A DNA stretch of 40,001 nucleotides from Sphaeroforma arctica JP610 (taxonomy: Eukaryota), in the NCBI RefSeq assembly GCF_001186125.1, contig NW_014040324.1:50561-90561 (forward strand), given 5' to 3'. Positions 4,271 through 35,869 of this stretch are shown piece after piece; position 1 is the stretch's first letter; every line of letters starts with the position of its first letter. The translations under genes were made by a program, and so were the position numbers. The notes below the pieces were generated by a model. The model was given only the letters and a program-made list of their open reading frames with translations, was not told the origin of the DNA and ran no database searches.

Positions 4271-6672
4271 GGTCCTGCAGCATTAACAGCATGAGCTAGA
4301 CACTTGTCGTGACTGGCCAGCTGTGTGTTGGTTGGTTACGTCCTTATTAAGCAAGGACATGCACAGTCCAGGATTGAGTTCAATCTTAACTGAATCAGTT
4401 GAGAATACTCCTATTCAGAGTTACACTCTGAAACTTGATGCTGACCTCAAAGGGTCCAGATATAACACAAAAAAAAGGCGCAGCGATGGTACGAGTTCCT
4501 GATTATGCATGTTTTCTGTAAGAACATAGGGAACAACGACCGTGAAAGTCTGTACAACGAGTTACGACGTAAATACGCAACTGAGGCTCGAGACAAGGGA
4601 CATGAAACAAAGTTTCATCCATCCCGACTTGCGTGGGAACAGTTTTATGATACTATATCCGCTCTTTTCCCCGCACACCGAGTAACCTCGAAGGGAAAGG
4701 CGGTAAATATGAAACCGCGCAAGCTCGCTGATCAAGGGTACCTCTCACGCCAGACGTCAGATGATAAACCTCATCAGACGCGTCCTAGCCAGACACGTGC
4801 TCGCGACTCCACTCAATCAACGCGACCTAATAAACGGGCACGCGCGGAAGACCAATGGCTATCACGCCAAGTCTTGTGACAAAATTCCCGACATTAAGTT
4901 GGAGTGAAAGTACTACCCGGTACAATCATTACAAAGAAAATACAACGACTCCTTAGATTAGCGTGTAATAATCCCTGTGTATTGCAACGGAAATAAAGTA
5001 CTTACATTTATTGATCCTGGTTCAGAAATTTAATGTATATCCGACCGTTTTGCATTAATGAAATATATTGAAAGGCGCACTCAAACTACTCACCTAATCT
5101 TAGCAGATGACAAGCTTCTAAGTGTGACACCATGGCCACAGATGTTAAAATCTCCCTGGCCGATGATAGAAATATCACTACCCAAGCTGTGATAGTTAAG
5201 ATGTCACAGGAGTACGACTTAATAGTCGGAATGAGTGACTTACTCACACTAGGTAAAACCGTAATTGGTTTACCAAATAACATAGGTCCTTTAAAGGATC
5301 AATCAGACGATAACTGTCTGAAACCATATAAGCCCCCGTCAGACACAGTCAGGGCATTAATACCTGACTTTGCGGACAAAATCATGGATCTGATTCTAGT
5401 AAATAAGAAGATAAAGATTACAGATTGGGCAAAATTCCGTTTTAACGACGGATATATTAGCCTTGACTTAACCAAGGTAGACTTTACTAAGCTCAAATGC
5501 CCTCCAAGAAGCTATGTTACTTGGAGACACGAAGCTGCAGTTAAAGAACAAGTTGAGAATTGGTTATCCGATGGGGTAATCGAAATCAATTACCAACAAA
5601 CGCCAGTTAACTTAGCATTATTGGCAGTTGATCAATACAACTCTGACGGAACATTTAAGAAAGTCCGAGTATTTAGATATGAGTCCAATAAATAAGTTAT
5701 TGCCGACTCATAGTTTCCATTTCCCTCGTATAAAGAAATTACTGAGACGAATGGAAGGTGGTCCGGTGTTTACTTCCATAGACCTAACACAGGGGTATCA
5801 TCAAATGCAAATTTATGAACCCCATCGTAAGTACTTTAGTTTACCTGGAAAGGTAAATAATACAGGTTTGAGCGAATATGCCGCATTAGTCAGGCGAGTC
5901 TTTCATTTCAGAGACTCAACGAACAAAACTTCAAGATTAACGAGAAGAAATTTCACTGCGCCATGAGCGAAATACAGCTTTTAGGCTACCGTATATCTGG
6001 GGAAGGTATTGAAATCGACCCCGGTAAGGTGGAACACCTGTTAGATTGGCGAACACCAACTACAGAAAGAGATGTAAACAGCATGAGTGGGTTTGTAAAC
6101 TTCTTTTCAGATGGATTACCACACTTGGCTGATTATCTTAAACCCTTTGGACACTTAAGATGACATAAAGGCAAACTAGGAGACTTGTGGACTAAAGAGT
6201 GTGATGACGAATTTAAAGCGCTCAAGCACGCAGTCCAACAAGCCCCTGTTGTACAAGGACCAGTCGATGGCGTGCCTTTTGAAATATAAACGGACGCATC
6301 AGACTTGGCACTCGGAGGTGTACTATACCAGTTTATAAATAATAAACCAAGGTATATACAATTTTTAGCCGAGCAATGAATGCATCACAGCTGAATTATC
6401 CAACTGTAGAGCAAGAGCTACTAGCCATAGTAGCAGCTTCAACACACTTCTGCGAATACTTATACGGAACAGCTTTTACGCTGATGTGTGATCAGAAGAC
6501 CCTTCAATATATGAAGGAAATGAAGCCAGACTCTTAATTACTGAGCCGATGGCATGATACAATATCAAAATTTCATTTTGATATTAAACATCTACCGGGG
6601 GTACATAACCATTCACCGGATATGTTATCACGCTTCGTACCGGACTTTAATAAATCCGTACGTGAGATACTA

Positions 6673-7113
6673 GCCACTGATTGGAAATGTAACCCCAGGG
6701 GGTTTAAACTGGCTCAAAAGATATTTGGACCACATACAGTTGACATGTTTACTGCACATCATAATGCACAACTTAAGAATTACAGGACTTCAAATCATCC
6801 TTTAGGAGATACCTTTCAACTAGACCTCTCCGAACATAATGCGTGGGCTAATCCACCATGGCAGTTAATTGCCCAATTACTATATTATGTTCATATACAC
6901 AATCTACCATAACGCTGTGTTGCCCCTTACGGAGTAAAGATTCATGGCCCAATACATTAATAAGCATGATACAATGCGAGCCAATATATTTAGTTAGGGA
7001 AGTAGATACCTTCCTAAATCAGAGTACCCGAGCCGTCCAGAGGACGCCCTGGAGACATAATTTTATCCCTATAATATGTCGTATAGGTCCCATTGGAACA
7101 ACCAAATGGACCC
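6673..7113 (+). pseudogene. DIRS-type DNA N6-adenine methyltransferase domain within family A pol
   Basis: In frame after the RNase H DMLSR: DWKCNPRGFKLAQKIFGPHTVDMFTAHHNAQL...DTFQLDLSEHNAWANPPWQLIAQLL (NPPW at 6850-6861), then after a frameshift ...PLRSKDSWPNTLISM...ICRIGP. Confidence 0.85.
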
Positions 7114-7892
7114 CCGCCCTGTCTGCCCCAGTAGCCACCAGTTCACTACCAGCCACTTTACCTGCATCCAACAACTGATTCGGCGCATCCTGGTAGGCCC
7201 GAAACTGCCGCCCATTAGCCCTGACCTCTTCAGCAATTACAGGAGTGCCACGACTTCCACGGTATCTGGACCCTCCACGAACACCTTGGATCTTTTCTCC
7301 AGCATGTTGAAGAACCACCGTACCTTCACCCGTCCCTGACACATCAACAGATGTTCCCCATACCCCGGCTAATCACGCTGTTGAAATACTACTTCCAAAT
7401 ATCGGTTCAAACCAAATCATCGCGATTGTTGGTTCCGACTATGATACTTCCAATCCAGGCCAGCCAACACATACCGAATTCATCCGTGGTCTGGTGCGGC
7501 ATTGGCTTACTCCCATCCTCGCTTCTCGACCGGATTATGACGGATAACCTGGTCCTTCTCGGTATTTCGTACTCTGCACTAACCCATTCCGCGGCACTAC
7601 ACGGCGCAGACCCGATCCGTACCACAGAGGTGAGTACTCTACTTAGTAGGTCAGCAAGCAAATATATGGAACATTCGATAGTAACAGCGTTTTGTCAAAA
7701 CCGGCCCGAATTGACTCAGCACATATCTTCCATTGTCGACTCACTTGGCCCAAGCTTCAAACGGGGATTTACTGACCACTTCTTCCCATCAATCTTTCCT
7801 GAACCACTACAGCGACTATGAGAGCCATACCATATGTTCATACATTGTAACATACATACTTGCCATTTTTGAAATAAATAATATTATCCCTA
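7114..7892 (+). mobile_element. Unclassified repeat C, copy 1, inserted in A1 pol without a target-site duplication
   Basis: Homologous to 10059-10477 (-) and 15883-16771 (+). Removing it restores the A1 frame (aaa tgg acc c|ct gag acc ttc = KWTPETF). Confidence 0.8.
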
Positions 7893-8299
7893 CTGAGACC
7901 TTCTTTAACAAGGTCAAAGAATCAGAGATTCCACTCTCTACTAAATTGAACGTTAAGCAGTTCAAATGCAACACAGGACTTTGTGAAGTCTGTGCACAAG
8001 AAATACAATCTACTAATGACACTACAGTTAAGAAGCGCCAGTCTATAGCTAGGACTCTGTTTAACAACATAAAGTCCAAGCCCGACGTTTTCAATCCCTA
8101 TTTTTAAAGGGATTAATGAAAGATAATCCCGAAGCGTATACACATATAATTCGACTGTTTAATAAGTCAGGTGTATCAAACGCACGTGAGCGCACTCATG
8201 ACACTCATGCAAAAGATGGACAGGAGTCTGGAAACACTACAGACTTAGAGATCACGCAAGTGGATTCTCAACACCCTACCTTTATTCTGGAGGAGCAGA

Positions 8300-9295
8300 A
8301 TGATGAAAACATTCTTGCTTGGCTGACGCCAAACCATAAACTGAAGCACCAGAACATAGTAGACGCACTTAAAGATGCTAAGCGAAATGGGATCACGCAC
8401 CCTAAGCTGGCAACTTTAGTTGACAGAGTATATCAGTCATGTACAGACTGTGATCTCAACCAGGTCAAGCGCTATGGGTTCGCACCGCTTAAGAGTGTGA
8501 CTGAAGATGTTCCATAGCGCAGGTTCATCATTGATCTGGTTGACCTGCCTACGTCCGAGCACACAGGCAACCGTTACGTATGCTACTTCATTGATGTAGC
8601 GTCACTGTATAACTTGCTCTATCCTTTAAAGGACAAGAGTACGCATTCCATGGCAGAATTATGTTGCCAAGTCTTCGCTGACCACGGGTTGCCAGGTATA
8701 ATGTGTACTGATAACGGTAGCGAGTTCTGCGATGACGTATTGGAATCGTTAGTGCTCGTATCAGACATGTGCCATAAAAGGGGTGTACCATATAAACCGC
8801 AAACACAAGGCGCGAATAAAACGTGCCATAGAAGACTTAAGTTCTTCTTACGTACTACATTAACGGATGATGCAGATCATAGGCCGTACCACCTTAAGTG
8901 GGTACAAACATAGGTGAACGAGTGTGCTGATCCGGTTACAGGTACAACACCCGCTCACTATTTTCGTGGCACATATAGCGAGTTACAAATACCTTTGAAC
9001 AAGGACGAACCTAATCACCATGAGTTACCATGGTTAGAGAAGGCACAACGTATTTACAACGTTGTATATCCTTGCTTGCGAGAGACACGTAATGTGGCCT
9101 TATTAAAAAGGCAAAATAGATGGAATGCTACCAGAAAGATATCAGAGTATCAGATTGGAGAGTGAGTTAACATCCGTCAACGTAATTCCGATGCTACTGT
9201 ACTAACATCGAAACGGATAGGACCATACATAATCTCTGTAGCCGACACTAAAAGTGGAACCTGTGAGGTTAATAACCCCGACGGTTCTAGTGCTT
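8300..9295 (+). pseudogene. Retroviral-type DDE integrase (HHCC, rve core, GPY/F motif) of A1
   Basis: HKLKH...CTDC; P*RRFIIDLVDLP...YFIDVAS...DHGLPGIMCTDNGSEF...YKPQTQGAN; YQIGE*V...KRIGPYII. Confidence 0.9.
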
Positions 9296-9305
9296 TAAAT
9301 ATAGG

Positions 9306-9823
9306 TTAATAGTACCAGGAATTTAAGTTTCCTAAATGGTTATTATCGGTTTTATTAATTAATACCTTTTCCATTTTACATTCAGATATTTGGACAAGGC
9401 CATTAAAAGGCCCCAGTAAAAGACAAACATAAGATTTGGTCTAGTTCTACTAATAGAACTATATTTACTTTCCAAATCTATTTATATCTGAATACTTCGG
9501 TAGCGAGATGGCTCAACCGAACATAGGTTTCTAAGGACTATTAGCGTTGCTTAGTTTATCCTCCGTTCAGCCAACCAGATGTGCCAGTCTGATGAAGGCT
9601 AAGTCGGTAATTCTTGATACGTGACAAGTTATTAGTTAATGCAATAACTATGGACATCAACAATATATATTTTTTCTAAAGATAAGATTTTATGAGTCTC
9701 TCGGATTCGCCCCAACGAAACATACCATAGTTTCTAATAGAGCGACAACGAAACACTAAATAAAATCCCTTCGGCGAAAACAGTACTGAGAGGATTATAT
9801 ATTGGCAATGTCTCAGCCTCACA
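9306..9823 (-). repeat. LTR (partial), most likely the 3' LTR of element B
   Basis: Direct repeat of ~17842-18374. On the minus strand it begins TGTGA at 9823, immediately after a purine-rich 'tctgagggat' (weak PPT), and contains TATAAATAG near 9478-9486. Confidence 0.7.
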
Positions 9824-9899
9824 ATCCCTCAGAGTATTGCTGTTTTCACGAGGCATACCTAACTTTACTAAAAAGACTCATTTCGTTTATTTTTTCGAA

Positions 9900-11545
9900 T
9901 TTAGCTATACTTAGACTTAACCTAAGCGTTTAATTACTCTAAGACGTTAATATCGCCTTGATAGACCGAGTCTTACAGAGGTAATTATTATATTGTGTAT
10001 GTAAATTTATATCCCTGAGTGTCTTTGCCTACAAGATGATAGAGGATATATCTTATATTAGGGAAAATATTATTTATTTCAAAAATGACAAGTATGTATG
10101 TTACAATGTATGAACATATGGTATGGCTCTCATAGTCGCTGTAGTGGTTCAGGAAAGATTGATGGGAAGGAGTGGTCAGTAAATTCCCGTTTGAAGCTTG
10201 GGCCAAGTGAGTCGACAATGGAAGATATGTGCTGAGTCAATTCGGGCCGGTGTTGACAAAACGCTGTTACTATCGAATGTTCCATATATTCGCTTGCTGA
10301 CCTACTAAGTAGAGTACCCACCTCTGTGGTACGGATCGGGTCTGCGCCGTGTAGTGCCGCGGAATGGGTTAGTGCAGAGTACGAAATACCGAGAAGGACC
10401 AGGTTATCCGTCATAATCGGGTCGAGAAGCGAGGATGGGGATAAGCCAATGCCGCACCAGACCACGTATGAATTCGGTCCATAGTGACTCATCTAATGGT
10501 GGCTCCGTAGCCCGGTGAACTAGCCGAATAATCTCTATATTAACTGGGCGATCTCTGATTTCCGGCGGTTTGCTGCCATCCTTGTATCGTAGATGGTAAC
10601 TCTGATTCATACGACTATGAATTACATACGGACCCAGCAAAGGCTTCATAGCTTTGGTAGTCGCCTCTTGTGCGAGTATCATGACAACGTTACCTGGCTT
10701 AAATTCAATTAAATCAAACTTCCGCATTTGGTCAGTAACCTCCGCCATAGCATCAGTGTACTTGATGGTTTTCTGATGAAGTTTTGACAGAATCGTCTTC
10801 TCAAGGTCATCCAATCGCTTAAGCCATGCATCATTCATGGTCGGAATATGATCAGGTAAGTCATCAGTCATGTCTGCAAATGGAACATGGCAGCGCCCAA
10901 AGTAAACACTAAATGGTGCTGACTTGTGTCGACGTGTTATCCGGAGGTTCTGGTAAAGCATAGTAAAAGGTAGGCGTTCATCCCACAATTCCGGACAGCC
11001 AACACAGACGCACACATATGTGAATTTCTTTGTTTCGGCGCTCTGCCGCACCCAAAGTTTGAGGACGATATGATTGAGATGTCTTGTGTATAATTCCGAA
11101 TCCTCATGATATAGACCTGATAATGTTGTTGATAAATTCAGTCCCCTCATCACTCTGAATTTTCAGAGGAAAGCCATGCTTCACCAAATACCGACACTAA
11201 CTCTGTCGCCACCGTCTTAGCATCTTTTGCAGGCAGCGCCGGTAGAATAGAGTATCCGGATGCCACATACAAGACATGTAGAATAAGCTTGTTGCCTTTA
11301 GTAGATGTTACTGCCATCGGAATGATATCCATTTGAATGTGATCCCATGGATAACGTGCCGTAATACTCATTAAAGGATAAAATCCGTTATTCATAGTGT
11401 CATTACCTAAACATGTGCGACATAATTTTCGGACCTCTTCCGTTATTGGAAGCATTTGGTCCCAATTGTGTCCATCGTCTCGCATCTGTTGCACTATGAC
11501 CGCTGGAGCAGGATGTCCTTGTTCATGAAACTGCCAAGTAAGTTG
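9900..11545 (-). pseudogene. Integrase of element B with a GPY/F motif and a putative decayed C-terminal chromodomain, interrupted by repeat C copy 2
   Basis: FHEQGHP...CRTC...YPWDHIQMDII...SAPFSVYFGR...FKPGNVVMI...LLGPYVI. After excising C: DESLWNIRYILYHLVGKDTQGYKF...DSVYQGDINVLE*LNA. Confidence 0.75.
10059..10477 (-). mobile_element. Unclassified repeat C, copy 2 (shortest)
   Basis: Reverse complement of ~7474-7892 with the same fixed end (...AATAAATAATATTTTCCCTA). Excision restores tgg a|at ata aga in frame. Confidence 0.8.
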
Positions 11546-11754
11546 TACCCGGCTATTAGCTTCTTCATGTCCAGGATGATTGAGCACCGTCGCCCCCACA
11601 CAAATTTCAGTCACCTGTTCCGCAATCTGGCGTGTACGTCTGGTCATGGCTGGTTGCGCCCATGTCTCTTGATAACGATCATTAGCTTCCTCACACACTG
11701 GTACTTCGAGACCCAAGCTACGCCAAAATGACGGAGAAACTTTATAACCCGATG

Positions 11755-12157
11755 GAGGGCCAATACGCACTACCACCGTATATTCCCATGGATACTTACC
11801 ACATGCCTGTGTACCGTGCTTCAAGAACGTATGGGCTGTACGCGGGATCAGCAATGAATCTGATTGCATCATCGATAGAAGCAGAGGGAACCATGGCGCC
11901 CGTGTGTTCAACGGGAGTCACGCGACGCCCTGTCTGACAATATTTTACGAAGTACCTTATGTATAAGGCGCCATGGTGGATTCATCCATGCATTGTACTT
12001 GCTCCAGTCAAATTTTAAAAGCGCCTCCGTCTTTATCGTATGACCAGTATTGTCGTAGCTGAGCAGTGTCGCTTGATGCAAAGGCGTCAACGTGGTTAGG
12101 TCCGAAGTGGTTTTGAACCTGATCAAAGAAATCGGGATACAGCTTCCAGCACGATGT
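11755..12157 (-). pseudogene. DIRS-type DNA N6-adenine methyltransferase domain within family B pol
   Basis: CWKLYPDFFDQVQNHFGPNHVDAFASSDTAQLRQYWS...AFK/FDWSKYNAWMNPPWRLIHKVLRKIL (NPPW at 11971-11982).../TRAPWFPLLLSMM...VVRIGP; in frame with RNase H at its start. Confidence 0.88.
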
Positions 12158-12189
12158 GTAGAAGATAGCGAGAAAGTTGGTGTCCGCCG

Positions 12190-14052
12190 TGCCCTCATGA
12201 ACCCGGCACCACATGTCTGGTAATTTATTCAGTTCACCTGGAACATGTGCTATCACGAAGTTGAGTTGCGCAATGATGTGATGCCATCGTTGCAGCATGC
12301 TGTTCAATTTCAGTTGTGTGTTCATGTATATCAGCGCTTTGTGATCCGTGTGCACAGTGAAGCGCTGGCCTATTAAATGATCATGGAAGTGGACCAATGC
12401 ATATGTGAGCGCTAACAATTCCTTCATTGGTGTCGCTTATATCTGCTGCGCCTTGTTGAGAGTCTTTGAAAAGAACATCGGGTAGTGCTTGCGGCCGTCA
12501 ATTAACTGAAATAGTGCACCGCCGATACCCTAATCACTGACATCAGTCTCTAATTCGAGTCGAACCCCGTCAACCGGAAAATTTAACCGTACCGCAGATA
12601 CGATTGCTTCCTTCATCTGATCCCATGCCAATTGATGTTCTGGTTTCCAACGATCCCCAATCGGTTCCTTCGGCTTGAGTTTCGAGAACGATCGTAGTGG
12701 GGCCACTTTATGTGCAAAGTTAGATAAGTGCTCATGTAGAAAGTTCCCCAATGCAGATGCTATGTCCCTTTGGCATCGCGGCACTGGCCAGTCGATCAAC
12801 CGTTGTTGTTTCTCATGATCAGGGTCAATTTCTTTTGCAGAAACCTTCTTCCCTAGGACCTTAACCTCGCTTACTGCAAAGTGACACTTCTTCTGGTTAA
12901 GCTTGAGGCTGTTCTCGGCAAGCCGTCGGATGACCTCTTCCACTGTTGCAATATGTTCCTCGTAGTTATCAGATGCAATTATAAGGTCATCGACGTAGCA
13001 CTACACGTCTAAACCCGCCATCAGATTACTGATTGTGCGCTGGAATTGAGACGTGAGTGTCGACAATCCGAATGGGGCCGAAGTGAAGGAGTATTGGTTA
13101 CTGTCCCAAGTAAACGAGAACAAATGTTGTGAGTCCTCGTGCACGGGAAGGCGATGATATGCAGCCAATAAATCTAACGTGGTATAATATCGCTTGCCTC
13201 TTAAGTTACTAATAATCTCATTGACCTTCGGTAGCGTAAACTGGTCGCCCGGAATAAGGGCGTTGATCTGTCGCAAATCCAAACACACCCGAACCTTAAT
13301 GAGTTTCCCCGATGGTGTAAATGATGGTACTGCTAGTAAAGGCAGGTTGACCACTGACGCCGACGTACGACGTTTGGTCACCAATTCATGTTCCCATTTA
13401 TGTACCTGTTGCGTGGCGTGTGGTTTGTACTTGTCTGACACAAAGTTCCGTGTTTGTCGTCGAAGACCCAAAATTTTATCGCGAGGTATGGGGAGGGATA
13501 CTTCGCTACCTGGTAGAGTACATCGAACGGCATCCAAAATGGTCTCGTTGGCATCTAAATACTGGCGTAGTCGTTGCCGTATATCCTCAGCCTCGGACAA
13601 ATCTGGTGCCATGCGCATTTTGGAAACAGAGTTGATGGTCGAGTAAGACCTAAGCCCAATTCGCCCATAATATTCATTCCCAGAATTACATCAATATTAT
13701 CGGGTAAATTCATAAGTTCAAACGTACAACCTGTAGCAGACTTTGTACCATATTGAACCGTCGTGGCGTGTATCTTGCCAGGGCGCGGAGTGCGAAAAGC
13801 TTTGTCCGCCAAGTATATGTAACTGTCCTTAGCTGGTGGTGTAATGGACAGGTGCGCCTTTGCTGCGGATGTCTGAGTAATAACGGAGCGGTTCGCCCCC
13901 GTATCAGTGAGTGTGCGCATCGCATTTCCGTTGACTTGTAACGTAACATATACACGGTTGTCAGTAAGGAACAATTTATCTTTTATTGCAAATATTCGTG
14001 TTGCCGTTCGACCAAACGTCACACACACGTTTAACTCAGACACTTCAACAAC
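12190..14052 (-). pseudogene. Protease, reverse transcriptase and RNase H of element B
   Basis: DTGA aspartic protease motif; Ty3/Gypsy-type RT motifs including YVDD; RNase H ELETDVSD...ELLAL...TDHKAL...HVPGELNKLPD. Several frameshifts and stops. Confidence 0.9.
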
Positions 14053-15882
14053 TCAATTTGAGCTTGGCTCCTCTTCCCACTCGGCTGGCCCTTGCTCGGC
14101 CTCCATCAACTCATCTTCACTGTCCACATACGACTCGTCGACCATATTATGAATATGCATCACCTCACTTTCTCCTACCTCATCTGGCGTCAGATCAGGC
14201 ATATGATCATCCCCATCCACGAGATTAACTCGAGGACGGAAGTTATTACCCGACGCCTGTTGTGTGGGAGTGGATGTTCCTCCAGCCAATGTACGGTGTG
14301 GTGGCGCACCCCCACGTTGCGTATGGCTGCCCGTGTTCGTTGCTGTCGGTACATGGTGCGTGTGCTGGGCCAGGAGGGAAATTCTGCTCACATGACCGAC
14401 ATTGAGCCTTAGGGTTCGATGCTGGCGGCGCATGCGGATTAGCTCGTGTGTTGGCCTCCACACGCGTTCGTGTGCGTGAACGTGAACACCCGGGGATTTG
14501 CAGTGGTCGGGATAGGTTTGCCCGACGGTGTTCTTCCGCCTTATCAATACTCACCCGAAATACATCACGCATTTGTGCCGCGGAATATTCCCGCCAATTA
14601 GGGTGCATACGAAGAGTATCACGGTAATATGCACCCCCCGCAGTTTGATTCATTAGGTTGAGCATACCATGGTTGCGGTATACTTGTAGTGGATTATCAT
14701 ACTGTCGCATCTCCATAAAGTCTACTTTGCGTTCAAAATCCCAAAGTTGTGTCCCTAGTGGCACCGAAGGGTTTAACTTCATGCAAGCCAATACATTTTT
14801 TGTATGCGTTATTCTCCAGATCTTGTTCGTGTGTGCGTACAATCTAAGCAGTGGCGTCCAGAAACGACATGGACTGCAATTTTTGTCCGTTCTCTACAAT
14901 AAAATTCAAAAACGCCTTGGGTGCTCCTTCTTTCTGTAGTGCCCTATGTAGGCCCATCTGCATATGAATCGGTTCTAATTTGTGAAATTTCGCATTCTTA
15001 TGCCAATCCAAAATAAACGCATGCAACTGTATCTTCTGCGAACTATCCAAATAATAGCTGCCCTGTGGATTAGGTGGCCATTCCTTGAGTGTTCGTTTAT
15101 CTACCGTTATTGAGCAAGTCTTCAACGTCTCGTTAGATGTGCGAATTAAGCCCTGCAACGAACGAACGTCCTCAGTGCATCCTTCAGCTTCTGCTTGCAT
15201 CATACGTTGGGTGAGAAGGAATACCTGCGTTTTCATCTCTGCCGCGGTAGCTTCAGCAATGCACGCCTCCGTAGGTGGTGATATCTTACGTTGTTTCACG
15301 TCCTGCGGGTCTTCTACGTAACGATCGTGGTAAACAGGAAAGTGCTTACGGTATGCAAGTGTATCGATAGGTACATTTGCATTATCCTGGCAGTTCTCCT
15401 CTCTTTCTTCTGGAGATTCCGGACGACGATGCTGTTGTAATTTGTTCTTGTATAAATTCGCTGCCGCTTGACCGTGAGTAGGCTGTTGGCGTGAAGGTTT
15501 CATCACTTTGCGAAATGCCTCAAAGGACCGCTTCGCCGTCGATGACAACTTTTAAGCGGTGGCCATGTCCATATGTAAGTCCGTTGGGTCCAAAAAAATT
15601 CTACCAGGTGATTTCACCAAAGTTGTCGATTCCTGATACCAATCCGGACCATCAGCCTGCATCTCATCAGGAATCGGAATCGTCTGAGCTCGATTTTGAG
15701 CGTTCTTCAGCAACCGCTCTCTGCGCGTAACATAGACATTCTCGTAAGGAGCCACTTGAGGTACGGGCTTCGTGCGACCAATCCTGCGCTTCACCGGGTT
15801 AATTTTCTTCCTGTTGATAGTCCCGCTGTTAGGTGACTGGTCGGTTGGTGGCAACTCTGCCTGTGTTGGGTATTGAGGAGCA

Positions 15883-16771
15883 AAACTACCGCCCATTGGC
15901 CCTGACCTTCTTCAGCAATTACAGGAGTGCCACGACTTCCACGGTATCTNNNNNNNNNNNNNNNNNNNNNNNNNNNNNNNNNNNNNNNNNNNNNNNNNNN
16001 NNNNNNNNNNNNNNNNNNNNNNNNNNNNNNNNNNNNNNNNNNNNNNNNNNNNNNNNNNNNNNNNNNNNNNNNNNNNNNNNNNNNNNNNNNNNNNNNNNNN
16101 NNNNNNNNNNNNNNNNNNNNNNNNNNNNNNNNNNNNNNNNNNNNNNNNNNNNNNNNNNNNNNNNNNNNNNNNNNNNNNNNNNNNNNNNNNNNNNNNNNNN
16201 NNNNNNNNNNNNNNNNNNNNNNNNNNNNNNNNNNNNNNNNNNNNNNNNNNNNNNNNNNNNNNNNNNNNNNNNNNNNNNNNNNNNNNNNNNNNNNNNNNNN
16301 NNNNNNNNNNNNNNNNNNNNNNNNNNNNNNNNNNNNNNNNNNNNNNNNNNNNNNNNNNNNNNNNNNNNNNNNNNNNNNNNNNNNNNNNNNNNNNNNNNNN
16401 NNNNNNNNNNNNNNNNNNNNNNNNNNNNNNNNNNNNNNNNNNNNNNNNNNNNNNNNNNNNNNNNNNNNNNNNNNNNNNNNNNNNNNNNNNNNNNNNNNNN
16501 NNNNNNNNNNNNNNNNNNNNNNNNNNNNNNGATCCGTACCACAGAGGTGGGTACTCTACTTAGTAGGTCAGCAAGCGAATATATGGAACATTCGATAGTA
16601 ACAGCGTTTTGTTAACACCGGCCCGAATTGACTCAGCACATATCTTCCATTGTCGACTCACATGGCCCAAGCTTCAAACGGGAATTTACTGACCACTTCT
16701 TCGCCATTCCATATGTTCATACATTGTATCATACATACTTGCCATTTTTGAAATAAACAATATTATCCCTA
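15883..16771 (+). mobile_element. Unclassified repeat C, copy 3 (spans an assembly gap)
   Basis: 15883-15949 matches 7202-7267; 16531-16771 matches ~7614-7892 with a small deletion; same CCCTA end. Confidence 0.8.
15950..16530. other. Assembly gap (N run)
   Basis: N bases. Confidence 1.
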
Positions 16772-17229
16772 TGTTGTTGCACTGTTGGTTCGGCCTCAGT
16801 CTCAGAAAAACCATCATCCACTGTCGCCTGGGCCGTGTCCTGGGGCATAGACGTGTCAATATCTGCCAGTGACAATTGATGGCGTTGGCGGAGTTGCTCT
16901 CGAATGAGGCGACTCTTTTCCTTTGCCTCCTTCACATGTATCATCGTATTCAGGTGTCCTGCTTGATCTGCAATCCATGCTGGGGCTCGGCTAAGCCTAG
17001 CCAAGGTTCGGATTGAGTACTGGGCCTCCTCCAAAAGCAAATGAGTCAATTCCAATTGAATTATCACCTTCTCGTCGTCTTCGGGTTCAGGTTGCTTGGC
17101 ACGTGCTGTGTCCACCTTATTGCATAGCTCGGTCAAATGGCGGATCGTTCCAAGCAACCGTTTCATAAGTTGGTCACAGGCTTGCTTACCCACCGTAGGC
17201 AGCGGTCTAGTCTCGGGTCCCGTCATCGT

Positions 17230-18374
17230 TGTGAAAAATAAAATGATAAAAGTAACCTAATTTGCTTCTTAGTTACTTAACCTTTAAAGAACGTATTATA
17301 ATAAATATAGTAGTTCGGTCACTTAAAAATGTGGTCAAAACTAAGTAACACTTAGTAAAGAGTGTTAAGTCTGAAATAAGTGAACTCAGTCAGAAGTGCT
17401 GTTATGATCGGCGCGTCTGCTGTATTTATTATCACGTTCCTGTGTGGAACGAGATTTTCTCTAACGGGTAATTATGAAAATACCTGTATCTATGGTTTTC
17501 GTTTCCCGGTTACTAAATTATGATGACACCTCTTGAGTCATCAATCTTTCATATCAAATTCTCTATCTTAATATTAGGTCCGATCCCTCTGAGTACGGTC
17601 CTAAAATATATTACTTAGGTCCGCTCCTCTGGTCCGGTCCTAAAATTCCACTTGTAGGTTGGGCCCTCTGGTCCAGCCCTCAATGCCCGTCCAGGGTACT
17701 TTGTCCACAATGTGCATAAACACATACATGCGCATACATGTGCATAATCACATACATGAACATATGTAATAAGCCGGGCCTCCACATTAGACTCTATGTA
17801 TAAACGTACTCTTAAGCAGTACGCAAATTATAAACGTACTCTTAATAGTACGAGGAACTTAAGTTTCCTAAATGTACTCTTAATAGTACGAGGAACTTAA
17901 GTCTCCTAAATGTGCTCTTAAAAGCACAAACCTTCTCCATTTAACATATCAGATATTTGGATGAGGCCATTAAAAAGCCTCAGTAAAATACCAAACATAA
18001 AAGGGTTGGTCTAGTTCTATTAATAGAGCTTTATTTACTTTCCAATTTTATTTATATCTGAATACTTCGGTAGCGAGATGGCTCAACCGAATATAGGTTT
18101 CTAGGGACTATTTACGTTACCTAGTTGGTCCTCCGATCAGCCAACCAGATGTGCCAGTCTGATGAAGTCTAAGTCGGTAATTCTTGATAGTGGCAAGTTA
18201 TTGGTTAAGACAATAACTAAAGGCGTCACGAGTATTTTTATTTTTATTTCTTTTTTCTAAAGATAGGATTTTATGAGTCTCTCGGATTCGCCCCAGAATA
18301 GAGCGACAACGGAACACTAAATAAAATCCCTTCGGCGGAGACAGTACTGAGAGGATTATTTTTCTTGTCTAAGC
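17230..18374 (-). repeat. LTR (~1.15 kb), most likely the 5' LTR of element B; contains internal hairpin repeat arrays
   Basis: 17842-18374 repeats 9306-9817. On the minus strand it ends in ...TTTTCACA at 17230, complementary to the TGTGA start of the other copy. Minus-strand TATAAATA near 18048-18056 and AATAAA near 17425-17430. Confidence 0.65.
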
Positions 18375-18414
18375 TAGTCGTTAAGAGACAAGCTAGTAGT
18401 CATAAGGTAAGATT

Positions 18415-21400
18415 ATGACCAAGAAAGACAACACTCCTTCTAAGAAGCGTAGAGCTGAAAAGAAGAAGATGGAGAGAGAAGTCGCTAACGCTGCCGCAGC
18501 TATTACTGCTGCAAAAGCAACCGACGCCGCTGCTGATGCATTTAAGCGCACTGTAGCCAAAGTACTTGCCTCTGACAATTATAGTCATAAGGACAATGCT
18601 TCAGATAAGGAAGTAGCCACTCCGCTTAAGGAGACTACTCTTTCTGACAGAGCCCGAGGGCCAACTATTGCCTCAACTTCAAAGCTTGCATTAACGATGC
18701 CAAGAAGTGAGACAAGGGATACGTCTCAAGACGCCCCAACCCATTCTTCTGACGAAAATCAAAAAGGAAAGTCCCCAATTATGAGGGCGTCCCCAATTAT
18801 AGGGGACAAAGACAAATTTCAGAAGGAACCTATTATAGAACCAGAAGAGGAGGCAAGCTCAAGTAGCAAAACCGAATCTACGTCCGAGACTTCTAAGCCA
18901 AAGGACATAAGTAAGTTAAGTACTAAATACGCTGATCTTAAGAATCAGTTAGCTACTATAATGAAAGACTTGACTGTCGAACATGTAGGTCAATTAGAAA
19001 GATCAGGAAACCTTAAACAGCACTTACGCGAGCATGTTTCCCCGGGCATTACTGAAGCCCTACAGAAGTGGACAGAACGTCGACAGGCAATTACGCCCAA
19101 AGACTCGAGCTCGACACCTGAGCCATATGATCCAGAGGTGCACAGCGTCGATATACTGTACGAGGCATTACTGCCAGAAGAACAGGCTAATCATTCGCTT
19201 GTTCTGACACCCGGCCGTGAGTCACCTGTCCTCAAAGGTATTATAGACCGAGAGGTAAGAATATATACTCCGCCACTTGTACCCAATTGGGAGGATAATC
19301 GTCGGAAACCAGTTAAGACTGGATATGTTATTCTGACGCCAAGGGATATTAATCATCCCCGCAGACATGTGAACGATGTCGAGTTTAATCGCTTCGACCG
19401 CACGGCTTTACACCAACCCGCAGAGGATTTCCACTTTGACGAGGTGACCGGCCTTAATAAATCGGTCAACGACTATTCCAATAAAATGATAGTCGCCCAT
19501 GCTGCACATCATGCTGATGACGTAGCATACTATGCAAATATTATTGCGATTAAGTAAAAGCGCATAGACCAAATACTTCAGGCCCAACGTGGACAAGACC
19601 ACAGGAACAACCAGAAGTACAAGGGACAGATCAGTCGACTTAAGTCGAACTTGGATGCCAACAGCATGCAGGTCGAGTTTATAAACAACCATGACCTCGA
19701 CACGCTAACTCGTACACTTAATGCGTTTACGGTCATGCTGGAGACGAATGATATCGCTTCCCAGCAATGGATCTCTGACTTAATGCAAACATTTGACCCT
19801 ACAGGGACCAGTTATCTGATCTTGCAGCGACACCAGCATGAGCTAGACACTTGTCGTGACTGTCCAGCTGTGTGTTGGTTGGTCATATCCTTGTTAAGTA
19901 AAGATATACGTAGCCCTGGGCTAAGTTCAATTTTAAATGAACCAGCCGAGAATACACCCCTTCAGAGTTATATTCTGAAGTTAGACGCTGACCTGAAACG
20001 TCCCGATATAACAAAGGACAAGGCACAGCGATGGTACGAATTCCTGGTTATGCACGTGTTCTGTAAGAACATAGGGAGTAACGACCGTGAGAGTCTGTAC
20101 ACCGAGTTGCGACGTAAACACGCGACTGAGGCTCGAGACAAGGGACATGAAACAAAGTTTTATCTATCCCGACTTACATGGGAATAGTTTTATGATACTG
20201 TATCCAGTCTTTTTCCCGCACATCGAGTAGCATCGAAGGGAAAAGCGGCTGTTGACCCCAACATACACGTGCTCGCGAATCCACTTCAACCACGCGACCC
20301 AATAAATGGGCACGCGCAGGAGCGAAGGACATGGAACCTCCATTGAAGAAGTTAAGAAATGTGCCGACGCCCAGTGTGGGTATGACATGTACCAGTTAAC
20401 TCCTAACGGTTATTGGAATGGTAGACATGCATCCACCTGTACACACTTTCTTACTAAGTGTGGCAAGTGTGAGAAGACCAATGGTTATCACACTAAGTCT
20501 TGTGACCAAAACCTAACATTAAGTTGGAGTGACGGTACTACCAGGTACAATCATTACACAGACAACACAGCGACTCTTTAGATGAGAGTGTAATAATCCC
20601 TGTATATTGCAATGGAAATAGAATCCTTGCGTTGATTGATCCTGGTTCAGAAATTTCATGTATATCCGATCGCTTTGCATTAATGAAAGATATCGAAAGG
20701 AGAACACAAATAACTCATCTCATTTTAGCTGATGATAAAACTACTAAGTGTGATACCATGGCCACAGATGTTAAAATCTCCCTGGCCGATGATAGGAGTT
20801 TACTACTCAAGCTGTGATAGTTAAGATGTCACAGAAGTACGACATTATAGTTGGAATGAGTGATTTACTCACTCTAGGTATAACCGTAACTGGTCTACCA
20901 AACTAACACAGATCCATTAAAGGATCAATCAGATGATAACTGCCTGAATCCATATAAGCCCCCGTCAGACACAGTCAAGGCATTAATACCTGACTTTGCG
21001 GAGAAAATCATGGATCTGATTCTTGATATTAAGAAAATAAAGATCACAGATTGGGCAAAATTCCGCTTTAACGACGGATATGTCAGCCTTGACTTAACCA
21101 AGGTAGACGTTACACAGTTAAAGTGTCCCTCAAGGAACTATGTATCCTGGAGACACGAGGCTGTTGTAAAAGAACAAGTTGAGAAATGGCTAGCAGATGA
21201 TGTGATAGAAATTAACTATCAACAAACGCCAGTTTACCTGACACTGCTAGCCGTAGATCAACATAACTTTGACGGATCATTTAGGAAATTCAGAGTATGT
21301 TTAGATATGAGTCCAATAAATAAATTATTGCCGACTCATAGCTTTCCCCTACCTCGTATTAACAAGCCACTGCGAAGGAAGGAAGGTGCTACAGTGTTTA

Positions 21401-22078
21401 CAACTATAGACCTTACACAAGGATACCATCAAATGCAGGTATATGAACCCCACCGTAAATACTTTAGCTTTACGTGGAAAGGCAATCAATACCGGTTCAG
21501 AGGTGCACCTTTCGGGTTACNNNNNNNNNNNNNNNNNNNNNNNNNNNNNNNNNNNNNNNNNNNNNNNNNNNNNNNNNNNNNNNNNNNNNNNNNNNNNNNN
21601 NNNNNNNNNNNNNNNNNNNNNNNNNNNNNNNNNNNNNNNNNNNNNNNNNNNNNNATAGATGACATAGTCATATTTTCGAAGACTACAGGTGAGCACACCG
21701 CATTAGTCAGACGAGTCCTTAAGAGACTTAATGAGCAAAACAACAAGATTAACGAGAAGAAATGCCACATCGCAATAAGCGAAATACAGCCATTAGGCTA
21801 CCATATATCTGGGGATGTTATCAAGATCAACCCTGGTAAGGTAGAACACCTGTTAGATTGGCGAACACCAACTACAGAAAGAAACTTCTTTTCAGATGGA
21901 GTACCACACTTAGCTGACTACCTTAAACCTTTTGGATACTTAAGATGTCATAAAGGCAAACTAGGAGACTTGTGGACTAAATAATGTGATGACGCATTTA
22001 AAGCGCTCAAATACGCAGTCCAACAAGCCCCAGTTATACAAGGGCCAGTCGATGGCGTGCCGTTTGAAATAGCAACGG
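18415..22078 (+). mobile_element. Ty3/Gypsy family A, copy A2: gag, protease, RT, start of RNase H; 3'-truncated
   Basis: Long gag (18415-20532, with premature stops) containing CGKC...H...C; LIDPGS protease; RT FRVCLDM, GYHQM, APFGL, IDDIVIFS; ends at EIAT(D). Colinear with A1. Confidence 0.9.
21521..21654. other. Assembly gap (N run)
   Basis: N bases. Confidence 1.
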
Positions 22079-23121
22079 GTTCGAATTTACCTACTATGGC
22101 TGTCATAACACTCCCAGGTGGTGCCTTGACGTACTCCATAGTTGCGTGTACACCTTTTGGCAAATCATTCATATCGTCAAAGTGTCGAGGCTTGTAGCTG
22201 CGTGTATTATCTACATCTACTAGTTTCTTCAATTCAGATGGGAAATCAAGACGGACTAGCATTTCCGTAATTGCTTCCTTTGAAAAGATGAAAGCATCCC
22301 CTTCATCACCTGTATACGATTCCATTCCCGACTTTTCCCCTTCTTGACCTCCCAGCAAATATTTCTTGAAGTTGCGGTGTCGGGAGCAAAGCTAAACAAA
22401 ATGATATAAAAATGATCAATATACAAAGAAAAATCAAATACAGATGACACGACATATATTACAATAATAGTACAAAGCTGTAAATAGCATCAGTATACAT
22501 ATGTCATACCTTGTTCCATCGATTTTGAAGCTGTTGATCAGTGTAGCCTTTGCCATCATCTCCTATTTGATTTAGCGTTTTATTGCCAACGGCAGTCCAG
22601 CCACTATTTTGTAGATTCTTGCATTTTCCATCCGGGCCCATTGGTGCACCTAGTCCAAATTTGATATAATCCATGTATGCTGAAACTAATGTCGTGTCTC
22701 GAAAACCCCCATCATTATCCCAATCCGCTCTGGGCATTTTTCCGGTAGAAGCCGATTTTTTTCTTTGACTTTGTCGCATTCTTCGACAAATCATCACAAA
22801 CGCTAGCTCGTTTGGACTTGAAAGTGGGTAGTATAGGATTAAGTATGTAGAATTGTCGACATACAAAGTAGATGTTGGATGATTCGGAATAATTGGATTG
22901 AAATTGAAATCGAGATGATCAAGCTTTGATGGTGATGGATCGGGCAATGCGTGCATAGTTTGAATTTTTGAGATCGGGCTGTGTATTTTGTTTTGTGTAG
23001 ATATATGGCTATTTTGATCAGCCACGTCAGACGAATCTTCAACCGATTCATTCCCAGTGACCTCATCTTCCTCCACAAGAGAATCCATGGATCTAGGCGC
23101 GTGAGATGGGGTTGCACTCAT
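22079..23121 (-). pseudogene. Myb/SANT-like DNA-binding protein of the PIF/Harbinger accessory-ORF type, 3'-truncated at the junction with A2; intron 22392-22509
   Basis: RADWDND...LVSAYMDYIKFG...NSGWTAVG...YTDQQLQNRWNK|LCSRHRNFKKYL...KSGM...PRHFDDMNDLPKGVHATME. The GT-AG intron splices in frame. The start codon is uncertain. Confidence 0.65.
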
Positions 23122-25257
23122 TGTGGTTGAAAAATGGTGTGGCACTTGTAGAATACGACTATTCTTTATATATTCTATCGATAATGAAACGAAAAATCTC
23201 AACAGTTATCAACACGAACGTTTTGAGAAATGGCGCGGTTTCGTTTTTGCTCTTTCTATTTTTGGCGGTATTGATGGTAACGTAAAAAAGTTGTCGTAGA
23301 GATAATAATATTTATTTCAAATTGCCGTAGGCGTAAAAATCGACGGTTGGAAATAATGGCTGTTTTAAATAGTATATTTAAGGAGCTCAAATATTTTTGA
23401 GAATGATGTTGTACCCAAAAGAAAATCTGAGAATAAAAAATCGATCTAAAATGGACTTATTCAAAAAGAAATCATTTTGAGTTGCAGAACAGGGCCTAAA
23501 ACCACTACCAACAGCATGGTCAAAATATATTTGCTTTGTTTTATGGTCACAAATTGCATTGGTATTAATAATAAAAATTACAAGGTAACCGACCATTAGA
23601 AAAATCTAATTTGAGAGTTTGCACTCATCTGTGTCCAATGTCAGCCTGTCAGGTGCATATCTCGATATATTCTAAGACAAACCGATAATGAAAAGGTGAA
23701 AGTTTCAAAGTTCAAAAATCAAAACGTTTGGCCGATTTAATTTTTGTGTTTAGAATACTTTTACGAAATATTCAAAAATATTCCATAGAATCCATAATAC
23801 AACTCTGCTCGTCTGAAACCATAAATGCTTTTACTCTCTACCTGCATACTGAACTCTAGAGTAGACGCTACTCTTTCTAGTGCGAAGATTTCAGATTTAG
23901 AGTATTTATTGTTTCTCATTTGTCATAGCATACGATTTATATACACACGTCTTCCATTATTAAAAATAGTAAACATAGCCTTCTACATAATAATCTATTT
24001 TTAAAAATAAAATAAAATAGTTCACTTATAGGGTGAACATTCGGCCATTTGCACTCGTTGCTTTTATGTTGCTGCCTTTTTTTAAAAAACAAAATATATA
24101 AACAAACAAAAGAATCATATCCTTGTTTTTTTAATTTTTAAAAACAATATAAAAGTACTTTGCTCTATTGTATTAAAAATAACGACAATAGGTGGTTACG
24201 CAAGAGACCTATTTTTAAAGGGCTAAGAGTACGAGACAGGGTTTTAGCGATGATGAGGTATTTATTTTGATTTTAAGGGGGATTAATTTTAAGGTTTTGC
24301 TCCGAGGTGAAGGTGGAACATTGCGTCTTTTTTTCCTGAAAACAATCACACTCGTCAGTCATCACTCATCACTCGTCACTGTCATCCGTCGTGCTATTCT
24401 ATTCAGTTATTTTCATAGCCTCCTTAAATTGAACATAGTATGTGTTTTTTTTTAAACAAAATGAAAATACGTGTTCAGGAAGTCGAATATGCGCATCGAA
24501 CAGCTCACTCTTTATGTGAGTGATCTCAGAATACTTTTATTCTTGTTGAGAAAGAAGGCATAAGTTTCCCCGTGTGGAACGATCTTGATATTTTAAAATC
24601 TCTCCTGTGCAGAAGTGCACTAATATTTGTTCATGTCCGGCATGCACGAGTGGAACGCAACACATTGCTTTCACTGCGAGCTCAATCATTCAGTTTTAGG
24701 GTACATACAAGGCTTCTACGTAAACACAGAATATATGGGTTCTAGTTTGTAAGCGTGATTAAAGTTGGGCAAATCAACCTACCCCTCTCGAGACTATCCC
24801 GAGAATCCTGTAGATGTCACCCCTCTATCTCTATGTAAAGAAGACAAACTAATGTCATTGCTCCTACCAAACTTGAGAGGGGCGGGGTGCCCCTGTCCCT
24901 GCCCTCCACTACTCTAGTGTCTACAACTCGTCTACCTATTATAAATATCGCACACTTTTCTCTTGCTTCGTATATCCAAAAGTGGTGAAGAAGACGGCTT
25001 GCTAACATTTATGCTTAAGTCACCGCTTTTTTAATCAAATAAATAGTACAGTGTACGTACGATATACAGATTGAATTGCAACATGCTGTTATCTATAAAT
25101 TGGATGATCGTGGCCTCAGTGGGGATTCTATCCATCCAATATCGATATATCTAGGAGTATCTCATGCTCCCGAGATAGGTTTACTTCTCTGATTTGTTGT
25201 ATCATGGCGGCCACTCCGAGTATCTGAACGTGCCACATGTTTGTTTCGCCGACTGGT

Positions 25258-35500: not shown

Positions 35501-35724
35501 ACAAGATAGAACAAACAATTCACCTAAACAAGCACCCTTGACGCTATAAAAAATGGGGCAGCAAGCGGAAATCGCACTTCACATACACACATATATACAG
35601 GCATTTGTATATTATGCACATATACAAACACGACATTGGCAAAGGTATAATCATTCGGATATACACTTACAAATACATTTAAAAATACATCTACATTAAA
35701 ATTTTCATTTACGCCCACACACAC

Positions 35725-35758
<34 letters not shown>

Positions 35759-35767
35759 ACAATAAAT

Positions 35768-35814
<47 letters not shown>

Positions 35815-35820
35815 ATATAT

Positions 35821-35869
<49 letters not shown>

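What the first reader, a model, noticed from the sequence alone, without database searches (positions are those of the whole stretch)
11755..12157. Ty3/Gypsy LTR retrotransposon (family B) encoding an N6-adenine DNA methyltransferase between RNase H and DDE integrase
Seen: directly after a Ty3-type RNase H and before an HHCC/DDE integrase lies W.L.P..F......FGP..VDAFAS....QL..Y.S...AF..DW.....W.NPPW.LI.KVL.K...PWFPLL, which contains SAM-binding motif I and catalytic NPPW motif IV. Known: this MTase type is characteristic of DIRS tyrosine-recombinase retroelements, where it also follows RNase H. It is not a standard domain of integrase-encoding Gypsy elements, whose order is PR-RT-RH-IN. Inference: a PR-RT-RH-MTase-IN lineage, either a DIRS/Gypsy chimera or an independent capture. 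It could methylate its own cDNA or new insertion, for example to mimic a permissive 6mA mark or evade host defence.
Basis: partly seen in the sequence, partly recalled or inferred. Interest (0 to 1): 0.92.

Follow-up and report, generated by a model that had tools for sequence, protein, structure and literature searches.

The report
Decayed gypsy retrotransposon carrying adenine methyltransferase
This is a broken copy of a gypsy-type jumping gene in the single-celled animal relative Sphaeroforma arctica that carries an adenine-methyltransferase domain between its RNase H and integrase, which in intact copies likely marks the element's own new DNA so that it stays active; this kind of element was described in the same species in a 2026 preprint.

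Summary
On the minus strand, 12160-11765 encodes a Dam-like (PF05869) N6-adenine methyltransferase domain with DAFAS and NPPW motifs. It sits between a Ty3-type RNase H and an HHCC/D-D35-E integrase. This copy is dead: the domain has two frame changes and a stop. A second family (A) in the window has the same design. It is not a nested DIRS fragment: 15 of 94 database RT-bearing proteins carry RT-RH-MTase-integrase in one ORF. RT and RNase H group away from the DIRS-like set. A host gene matches Sphaeroforma arctica (99%), and both window families fall in an all-MTase RT clade (SH-aLRT 99) with an Abeoforma whisleri protein. That matches the 'Ichthyosporean DAM-LTR lineage' of bioRxiv 10.64898/2026.05.21.726589, so the architecture is already known. 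This scan also met the design before in other genomes. Likely mechanism: 6mA on the element's own replication intermediate, maintained by host AMT1; this is unproven, and the preprint's E. coli assay was negative. Three additions: the best structural match is the RNA-cap methyltransferase PCIF1, intact relatives end in a divergent chromodomain, and Copia-type carriers exist.

The parts
11765..12160 (-). Family B Dam-like (PF05869/PCIF1-like) N6-adenine methyltransferase domain; DAFAS 12088-12074, NPPW 11982-11971; frame changes near 12013 and 11943, stop at 11920-11918
12180..12580 (-). Family B Ty3-type RNase H (two in-frame stops)
   Evidence: Pfam RT_RNaseH E 9e-23 on the X read-through
12850..13400 (-). 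Family B reverse transcriptase, YVDD at 12997-12986, one in-frame stop just before it
   Evidence: Pfam RVT_1 E 6.6e-24; RT tree
13640..13965 (-). Family B aspartic protease (DTG); frameshifted against RT
   Evidence: Pfam gag-asp_proteas E 5e-11
10479..11560 (-). Family B integrase: HHCC zinc finger, D-D35-E core, GPY motif; frameshifts; cut at 10478 before the position where relatives carry a chromodomain-like end
14053..15881 (-). Family B gag-like region, broken; no Pfam gag match; assigned by position upstream of the protease
   Evidence: no gag hit; contigs cover it about as deeply as pol; inference
16772..17226 (-). Open frame, possibly the N-terminus of family B gag cut off by repeat X
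   Evidence: ORF 16729-17256; no Pfam hit; inference from position
10059..10478 (-). Repeat X (partial), replaces the 3' end of family B
   Evidence: 97% inverted match to 7473-7892; about 100-fold higher contig depth and mixed flanks at 10059
15883..16771 (+). Repeat X (with assembly gap 15950-16530) inside or beside family B gag
6670..7070 (+). Family A Dam-like MTase domain (DMFTA, ANPPW), one frame change near 6905
   Evidence: Pfam Dam E 5.4e-5; 77.7 and 33.8 bits; 62-65% identity to intact P0055
4273..9306 (+). Family A copy 1: gag-PR-RT-RH-MTase-(repeat X at about 7170-7892)-integrase, broken
9306..9977 (+). Likely family A 3' LTR region: 9306-9798 recurs (80%) at 17880-18359 just before gag of copy 2; ends in CA at 9977, where contig flanks diverge
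17880..22078 (+). Family A copy 2: LTR-like repeat, gag, PR, RT; ends at the start of RNase H, before the MTase

Best explanation
This is a decayed copy of a Ty3/Gypsy retrotransposon of the ichthyosporean DAM-LTR lineage, with an N6-adenine methyltransferase domain between RNase H and integrase in Pol that, in intact elements, likely methylates adenines in the element's own reverse-transcription product so that new insertions would be kept transcribable. Shown here: the domain, its position, its presence in intact single-ORF relatives, conserved DxFA and NPPW motifs, and conservation as strong as that of RT and RNase H. Taken from the preprint: S. arctica marks active genes with ApT 6mA, and its DAM-LTR copies are more often methylated and more expressed than other LTR elements. 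Inferred: the domain is carried in the particle as part of Pol; it uses SAM to methylate the cDNA or RNA-DNA hybrid; after integration host AMT1 would maintain the mark; a divergent C-terminal chromodomain in intact relatives may help choose the site. This copy is broken and makes no enzyme. Identity about 0.95; the mechanism about 0.5.
For: Domain and order. Intact single ORFs RT-RH-MTase-IN: 15 of the 94 non-window RT rows; 9 of 35 proteins scanned have RVT_1, RNase H, Dam and rve together at Pfam E<=1e-4. The closest to family B is P0050 (36.7% over 830 columns spanning RT to integrase) and to family A P0055 (50-65%). RT tree: both families lie in a 12-row clade (SH-aLRT 99) in which every row that reaches the position has the MTase, and it includes Abeoforma whisleri Awhi_evm2s11263. 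Host: a methylmalonyl-CoA mutase exon is 99% identical to S. arctica, and 12 exon hits span the protein. Mean pairwise identity among 7 intact clade members: MTase 41%, RT 41.5%, RNase H 40%, integrase 36%, MTase-IN linker 20%. NPP plus an aromatic residue is present in all 15 clade rows aligned. Other copies in public contigs carry the MTase region, and all 4 runs laid show contigs without the frame change at 12013. An intact homolog folds with pLDDT 95 into an N6-adenine MTase fold. Preprint: 6mA enrichment and expression of S. arctica DAM-LTRs.
Against: No catalysis is shown for any member: the preprint's expression of DIRS and DAM-LTR domains in dam-minus E. coli raised no 6mA. Iyer et al. 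2016 place DIRS1 MTases in the PCIF1 clade and call them likely inactive. The best structural match is the RNA-cap enzyme PCIF1 (Z 10.7, rmsd 2.9, 131 aligned), ahead of T4Dam (Z 8.9, rmsd 3.0, 107 aligned), with several rRNA MTases tied with T4Dam. The 138-residue domain has no evident target-recognition part. The preprint's 6mA enrichment is a correlation and could be host AMT1 following transcription. In this family B copy the D before the first W, present in 18 of the 19 rows that reach it in the printed alignment, is C, and a usually conserved N after DAFAS is T; I could not tell whether that is decay of this copy or a family trait. The MTase tree is weak: the branch holding both window rows has support 84/88, and family B is in no starred group. 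No named DIRS or Repbase references were in the trees; 'DIRS-like' rests on architecture. The LTRs of family B were not found.
Confidence: 0.55

Rival explanations
1. The domain is an RNA N6-adenine methyltransferase like PCIF1/CAPAM. It would methylate the element's genomic RNA (the cap-adjacent A or internal A's) to stabilise it, favour translation or packaging, or hide it from RNA surveillance.
For: PCIF1 is the top match in both structure searches (Foldseek E 1.3e-5, TM 0.68-0.71, against T4Dam E 0.038, TM 0.37; VIA Z 10.7). The profile aligns with PCIF1's ECFASPLN and ANPPF motifs (E 0.21), and one DIRS-like homolog hits Pfam PCIF1_WW at 3e-5. Iyer 2016 files DIRS MTases in the PCIF1 clade. 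A negative DNA assay in E. coli is what this would predict.
Against: Sequence profiles point to phage DNA methyltransferases (Pfam Dam E down to 2e-14; phrog_111 E 4e-13). A shared fold shows no substrate. The preprint links DAM-LTRs to DNA 6mA and to AMT1-bearing hosts. PCIF1's large helical cap-binding part is absent from the 138-residue domain (target 482 aa, TMt 0.23).
Confidence: 0.2
2. The domain is a non-catalytic (or barely catalytic) nucleic-acid- or SAM-binding module kept for a structural or tethering role in Pol; 6mA on these elements comes from the host alone.
For: Negative heterologous assay; Iyer 2016's view; unverified notes of this scan describe relatives in other genomes that have lost the catalytic motif.
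Against: In this clade NPP plus an aromatic residue is invariant in 15 of 15 aligned rows and DxF/xA is kept across about 40% identity, as expected of an active site under selection.
Confidence: 0.18
3. The MTase protects the element or the host, for example by marking element DNA against a host nuclease or by acting against DNA viruses.
For: Proposed as speculation for retrotransposon methylases in PMC6338049 (passages); phage Dam relatives have such roles (recalled).
Against: Nothing in the window or in my calls points to a restriction or antiviral partner.
Confidence: 0.05
4. The MTase is a fragment of a DIRS element nested by chance in a Gypsy copy.
For: The copy is badly decayed and other repeats are nested in it.
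Against: Same position in two families of the window and in 15 intact single ORFs; colinear with P0050 across both junctions; no DIRS-type RT or RNase H around it; no tyrosine recombinase hit among the window frames scanned (17, 7).
Confidence: 0.02

Closest known systems
Ichthyosporean DAM-LTR lineage (Fernandez-Moreno et al., bioRxiv 10.64898/2026.05.21.726589; Pirum gemmata, Abeoforma whisleri, Sphaeroforma arctica)
   Same: Same host species; Ty3/Gypsy RT; Dam (PF05869) domain with NPP plus aromatic residue in Pol; RT clade shared with an Abeoforma whisleri protein.
   Different: The preprint says this lineage lacks chromodomains; intact members show a divergent chromodomain-like C-terminus, though both window copies are cut before it. 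I could not see the supplement, so I do not know whether families A and B are among its listed elements.
DIRS1-type tyrosine-recombinase retrotransposons with RT-RH-MT ORF
   Same: Homologous MTase directly after RNase H, with the same DW, GPHxxDxFA, NPPW and W motifs.
   Different: RT and RNase H fall in a separate clade; here there is a protease and a DDE integrase, and no tyrosine recombinase was found.
PCIF1/CAPAM cap-specific N6-adenosine RNA methyltransferase
   Same: Closest solved fold (Z 10.7, rmsd 2.9, 131 aligned); similar FAS and NPP motifs.
   Different: 18% identity; no WW or large helical domain; embedded in a retrotransposon Pol; substrate unknown.
Phage Dam family PF05869 / phrog_111
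   Same: Profile match over the N-terminal two thirds.
   Different: Stand-alone phage enzymes. Structurally the domain is further from T4Dam and EcoDam (Z 8.9 and 8.6), which carry a target-recognition insert (insert as described in the preprint).
Gypsy-DNMT retrotransposons (de Mendoza et al. 2018, PMC5890265; search listing and abstract start only)
   Same: Retrotransposon that captured a DNA methyltransferase into Pol.
   Different: Those carry C5-cytosine enzymes; this is an N6-adenine type.

Membership tests
Ty3/Gypsy LTR retrotransposon | Pol order protease-RT-RNase H-integrase | tested here: met
   (with the MTase inserted before the integrase)
Ty3/Gypsy LTR retrotransposon | RT groups with Gypsy-type RTs, not DIRS-like | tested here: met
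   in the 55-row side (SH-aLRT 100) with integrase-bearing Pols; references mostly unnamed, no Repbase set
Ty3/Gypsy LTR retrotransposon | HHCC and D-D35-E integrase | tested here: met
   (QMD, QSD, AAE with 35 residues between the second D and E)
Ty3/Gypsy LTR retrotransposon | Long terminal direct repeats with PBS, PPT and target duplication | tested here: inconclusive
   Family B: 3' end replaced by repeat X, no direct repeat found. Family A: the sequence after the integrase of copy 1 recurs before gag of copy 2. PBS and TSD not established.
Ichthyosporean DAM-LTR lineage | Dam (PF05869) domain in a Gypsy Pol with the NPP triplet | tested here: met
Ichthyosporean DAM-LTR lineage | Ichthyosporean host (S. 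arctica, A. whisleri, P. gemmata) | tested here: met
   host gene 99% to S. arctica
Ichthyosporean DAM-LTR lineage | Groups with A. whisleri DAM-LTR proteins | tested here: met
   RT clade SH-aLRT 99 with P0049; the MTase tree agrees only weakly, 84/88
Ichthyosporean DAM-LTR lineage | Lacks a chromodomain (as the preprint states) | tested here: inconclusive
   Window copies are cut before this region; intact clade members, including A. whisleri P0049, show a divergent chromodomain-like end
Ichthyosporean DAM-LTR lineage | Copies enriched for ApT 6mA and expression | not testable with these tools
   needs modified-base reads; reported in the preprint
DIRS retrotransposon | DIRS-clade RT and RNase H | tested here: not met
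DIRS retrotransposon | Tyrosine recombinase in place of a DDE integrase | tested here: not met
   DDE integrase present; no recombinase hit in the 24 window frames scanned
Active DNA N6-adenine methyltransferase | SAM-dependent MTase fold with catalytic (N/D/S)PP(Y/F/W) | tested here: met
   model of intact homolog P0004 residues 734-871; motif
Active DNA N6-adenine methyltransferase | Methyl transfer to adenine in DNA | not testable with these tools
   the published heterologous test was negative

The most novel reading that the evidence does not exclude
The 'Dam' domain of these retrotransposons is not a DNA methylase but a minimal PCIF1-like RNA (or RNA-DNA hybrid) N6-adenine methyltransferase that marks the element's own genome. 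It has been swapped among DIRS, Gypsy and also Copia-type elements, and the ichthyosporean lineage pairs it with an overlooked divergent chromodomain.
Probability: 0.2. Interest if true: 0.65.

Novelty: already known. Interest (0 to 1): 0.22.

Why it matters
If the model holds, a transposon writes its host's 'active gene' mark onto itself, the mirror image of escaping 5mC silencing. That idea, and this lineage in this species, were published as a preprint in May 2026, so this dead copy adds little. What stays open and testable is the substrate. The structural closeness to PCIF1 gives a concrete reason to test RNA and hybrid substrates after the negative DNA assay, and intact ORFs (P0050 for family B, P0055 for family A) are ready subjects.

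Tried and rejected
No whole genome was held, so genome-wide copy counts, intact S. arctica copies and dN/dS could not be had. A word-index search with the family A MTase half against longer proteins found nothing (10 candidates); the HMMER search with an intact homolog then found 1682 hits. The Atlas search of the family A fragment gave only leads under 0.9, with a Dam cluster at rank 6. A sequence-profile search of the PDB gave nothing significant (best E 0.073; PCIF1 0.21). A metagenome scan meant to fetch full-length clade members and look for LTRs returned 4 loci, none with the MTase. No RNA holder was listed for the element, which says nothing about expression. A second laying of contigs over family A and repeat X got no answer, so the 5' end of repeat X and the copy spread of family A stay open. 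No listed divergent contig bridged both MTase junctions (most records were not shown). The inverted arrangement of 10059-10478 and 16531-16771 first suggested DIRS-like inverted terminal repeats. I rejected that: the same repeat sits inside family A, runs about 100-fold deeper in contigs, and contigs of family B continue with other sequence at 10478 and 15881. The MTase tree could not name a DIRS donor. Pfam found nothing for repeat X's open frame or the gag-like frames.

Full report
Observation. The methyltransferase domain runs from about 12160 to 11765. Its first half (WKLYPDFF, FGPNHVDAFAS) and last third (APWFPLLL, KYPWEYTVV) are in the RT frame; the WMNPPW stretch is in another, and there is a stop at 11920-11918. 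Single fragments match Pfam Dam PF05869 only weakly (E 0.0046). A profile of 18 homologous domains scores the two pieces at 69.0 and 28.6 bits, against a best of 5.7 bits in 100 codon shuffles of the element. The feature is real. The copy is dead: RT, RNase H, MTase and integrase all carry stops or frameshifts.

Surroundings. A second element, family A, lies on the plus strand (4273-9977, with a truncated copy at 17880-22078) and has the same MTase after its RNase H (ANPPW; Pfam Dam E 5.4e-5). A third repeat, X, occurs at about 7170-7892, 10059-10478 and 15883-16771. Its two copies around family B are inverted and first looked like DIRS-type terminal repeats. In public contigs X runs about 100-fold deeper than the element (the tool warns that depth is no copy number), its flanks at 10059 are mixed, and family B contigs continue with other sequence at 10478 and 15881. 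So X is a separate repeat that has cut this copy, and family B's own LTRs are not in view. For family A, the sequence after the integrase of copy 1 recurs before gag of copy 2 (80%), as an LTR would. In the 4 runs laid (of 24 listed) the MTase region is covered about as deeply as RT and integrase, several contigs differ from the window there, and each run has contigs without the frame change at 12013. The domain therefore belongs to a multi-copy family. One exact contig may come from the source sample and is not independent support.

Host. A methylmalonyl-CoA mutase exon in the window is 99% identical to the Sphaeroforma arctica protein and 93% to the next best match. Twelve exon hits span that protein; the cleanly aligned ones are 92-100% identical, and four that run into intron sequence are lower.

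Relatives. Searching with the X read-through of family B gave 37 proteins; the best, P0004, is an intact 1420-aa PR-RT-RH-Dam-IN polyprotein, 35% identical over 98% of the region searched. Its MTase domain found 1682 proteins at E<=0.001, of which 150 were listed. Of 35 of these scanned with Pfam, 9 have RT, RNase H, Dam and integrase core in one ORF, and 4 have a Copia-type RT. Two are named Abeoforma whisleri proteins. The nearest intact relatives are P0050 for family B (36.7% over 830 columns from RT into the integrase, across both MTase junctions) and P0055 for family A (50-65%).

Trees. Of 189 sequences, 97 with a near-complete Gypsy/DIRS-type RT went into the RT tree; Copia-type and RT-less rows dropped out. 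Forty-two RT-RH-MTase proteins without integrase (DIRS-like by architecture; none is named) form one side (SH-aLRT 100). The window's three rows lie on the other side, in a 12-row clade (SH-aLRT 99) with A. whisleri P0049; all rows of that clade that reach the position carry the MTase. Seven other MTase-plus-integrase Pols fall outside this clade, which fits repeated capture. In the RNase H tree (93 rows) the 41 DIRS-like rows are again one side (100) and exclude the window, so only the MTase is shared with DIRS-like elements. The MTase tree (74 of 144 domains; most short unassigned rows left out; bootstrap not settled) puts both window rows with the same clade at only 84/88 and cannot name a donor. 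Among 7 intact clade members the MTase is as conserved as RT and RNase H (41, 41.5 and 40%), against 20% for the linker.

Fold. The MTase of P0004, folded with a 58-row alignment, gives pLDDT 95. Foldseek's only hits under E 0.001 are six PCIF1/CAPAM chains (TM 0.67-0.71); T4Dam is at E 0.038. The wide VIA search agrees: PCIF1 Z 10.7 (rmsd 2.9, 131 aligned), then DIMT1, Erm and T4Dam at about Z 9. Sequence profiles point to phage DNA methyltransferases. The model is of a homolog, not of the window's broken copy.

What is known. It reports DAM-LTRs for the first time and defines an ichthyosporean lineage in P. gemmata, A. whisleri and S. arctica with Ty3/Gypsy organisation. It finds more 6mA and more expression on those copies, proposes methylation of RNA-DNA intermediates maintained by AMT1, and saw no activity in E. 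coli. From Iyer et al. (PMC4738411; passages only): DIRS1 MTases belong to the PCIF1 clade and are called likely inactive. From PMC6338049 (passages only): Dam domains known in DIRS, with an antiviral role as speculation. Four further searches (listings only) showed no earlier title or abstract start describing Dam in Gypsy or Copia elements; the library lacks most subscription journals and Repbase. This scan's notes hold 23 findings with these words in at least 3 other genomes; they pointed to the same preprint, which I had already found.

Mechanism. Most likely (about 0.5): the domain travels in Pol, methylates adenine in the element's cDNA or RNA-DNA hybrid, and the host's AMT1 system keeps the mark after integration, leaving the copy transcribable. 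The domain, its conservation and its fold are shown here; the 6mA and expression link is from the preprint; catalysis, substrate and hand-over to AMT1 are inferred. Rivals: a PCIF1-like RNA methyltransferase (0.2), a non-catalytic binder (0.18), defence (0.05), a nested fragment (0.02).

What is added. First, the structural link to PCIF1, which the preprint's main text does not discuss. Second, a divergent chromodomain-like C-terminus in intact clade members. A. whisleri P0049 scores E 2.8e-6 with a profile of four Pfam-confirmed chromodomains; 26 of 30 Atlas hits are Chromo clusters, best score 0.92; P0045 and P0043 hit Pfam Chromo at E 0.014 and 0.055, below cut-off; 6 of 7 members align there, three with scores near or below noise. 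The preprint says this lineage has none, and the window copies are cut before the region. Third, Copia-type carriers with the domain in at least two positions; the preprint's Chloro-Ochrophyta clade, with DAM between integrase and RT, may be the same thing.

Verdict. The feature is real and correctly read, but it is already known in this species, and this copy is a decayed member. Interest 0.22.

Noticed in passing
window 7170-7892 (+), 10059-10478 (-), 15883-16771 (+): Repeat X: a separate repeat, about 100-fold deeper in public contigs than the retrotransposon. All three copies keep the same end (..CCCTA) and seem to lack the other; no Pfam hit in its 198-aa open frame. Type unknown (SINE-, MITE- or Helitron-like).
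   Followed up: partly
window 4273-9977 and 17880-22078 (+): Family A, a second DAM-LTR family with its own MTase (6670-7070), 50-65% identical to intact P0055 and only distantly related to family B.
   Followed up: yes
proteins P0049, P0004, P0043, P0045, P0051, P0050 (C-termini): Divergent chromodomain-like end in intact members of the clade, against the preprint's statement that the ichthyosporean lineage lacks chromodomains.
   Followed up: partly
proteins P0062, P0102, P0106, P0108: Copia-type (RVT_2) polyproteins carrying the same MTase: between integrase/SH3 and RT (P0106), before the protease (P0102), or after it (P0108). Hosts unnamed.
   Followed up: partly
window 29577-38271 (-): Intron-rich host methylmalonyl-CoA mutase gene with TA-rich intron repeats; matches S. 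arctica.
   Followed up: yes
window about 26719-26850 (-): Exon reading [21 protein letters not shown], which looks like Coq7/CLK-1 (recalled motif, not tested).
   Followed up: no
window 22504-23205 (-) and 21948-22391 (-): Open frames of 233 and 147 aa right after the truncated family A copy, with no Pfam hit; perhaps another transposon or a host gene.
   Followed up: partly
L001 1-123 and 5725-5847: Metagenome Gypsy chromovirus without MTase whose contig begins and ends with the same 123 bases (LTR or circular assembly).
   Followed up: no
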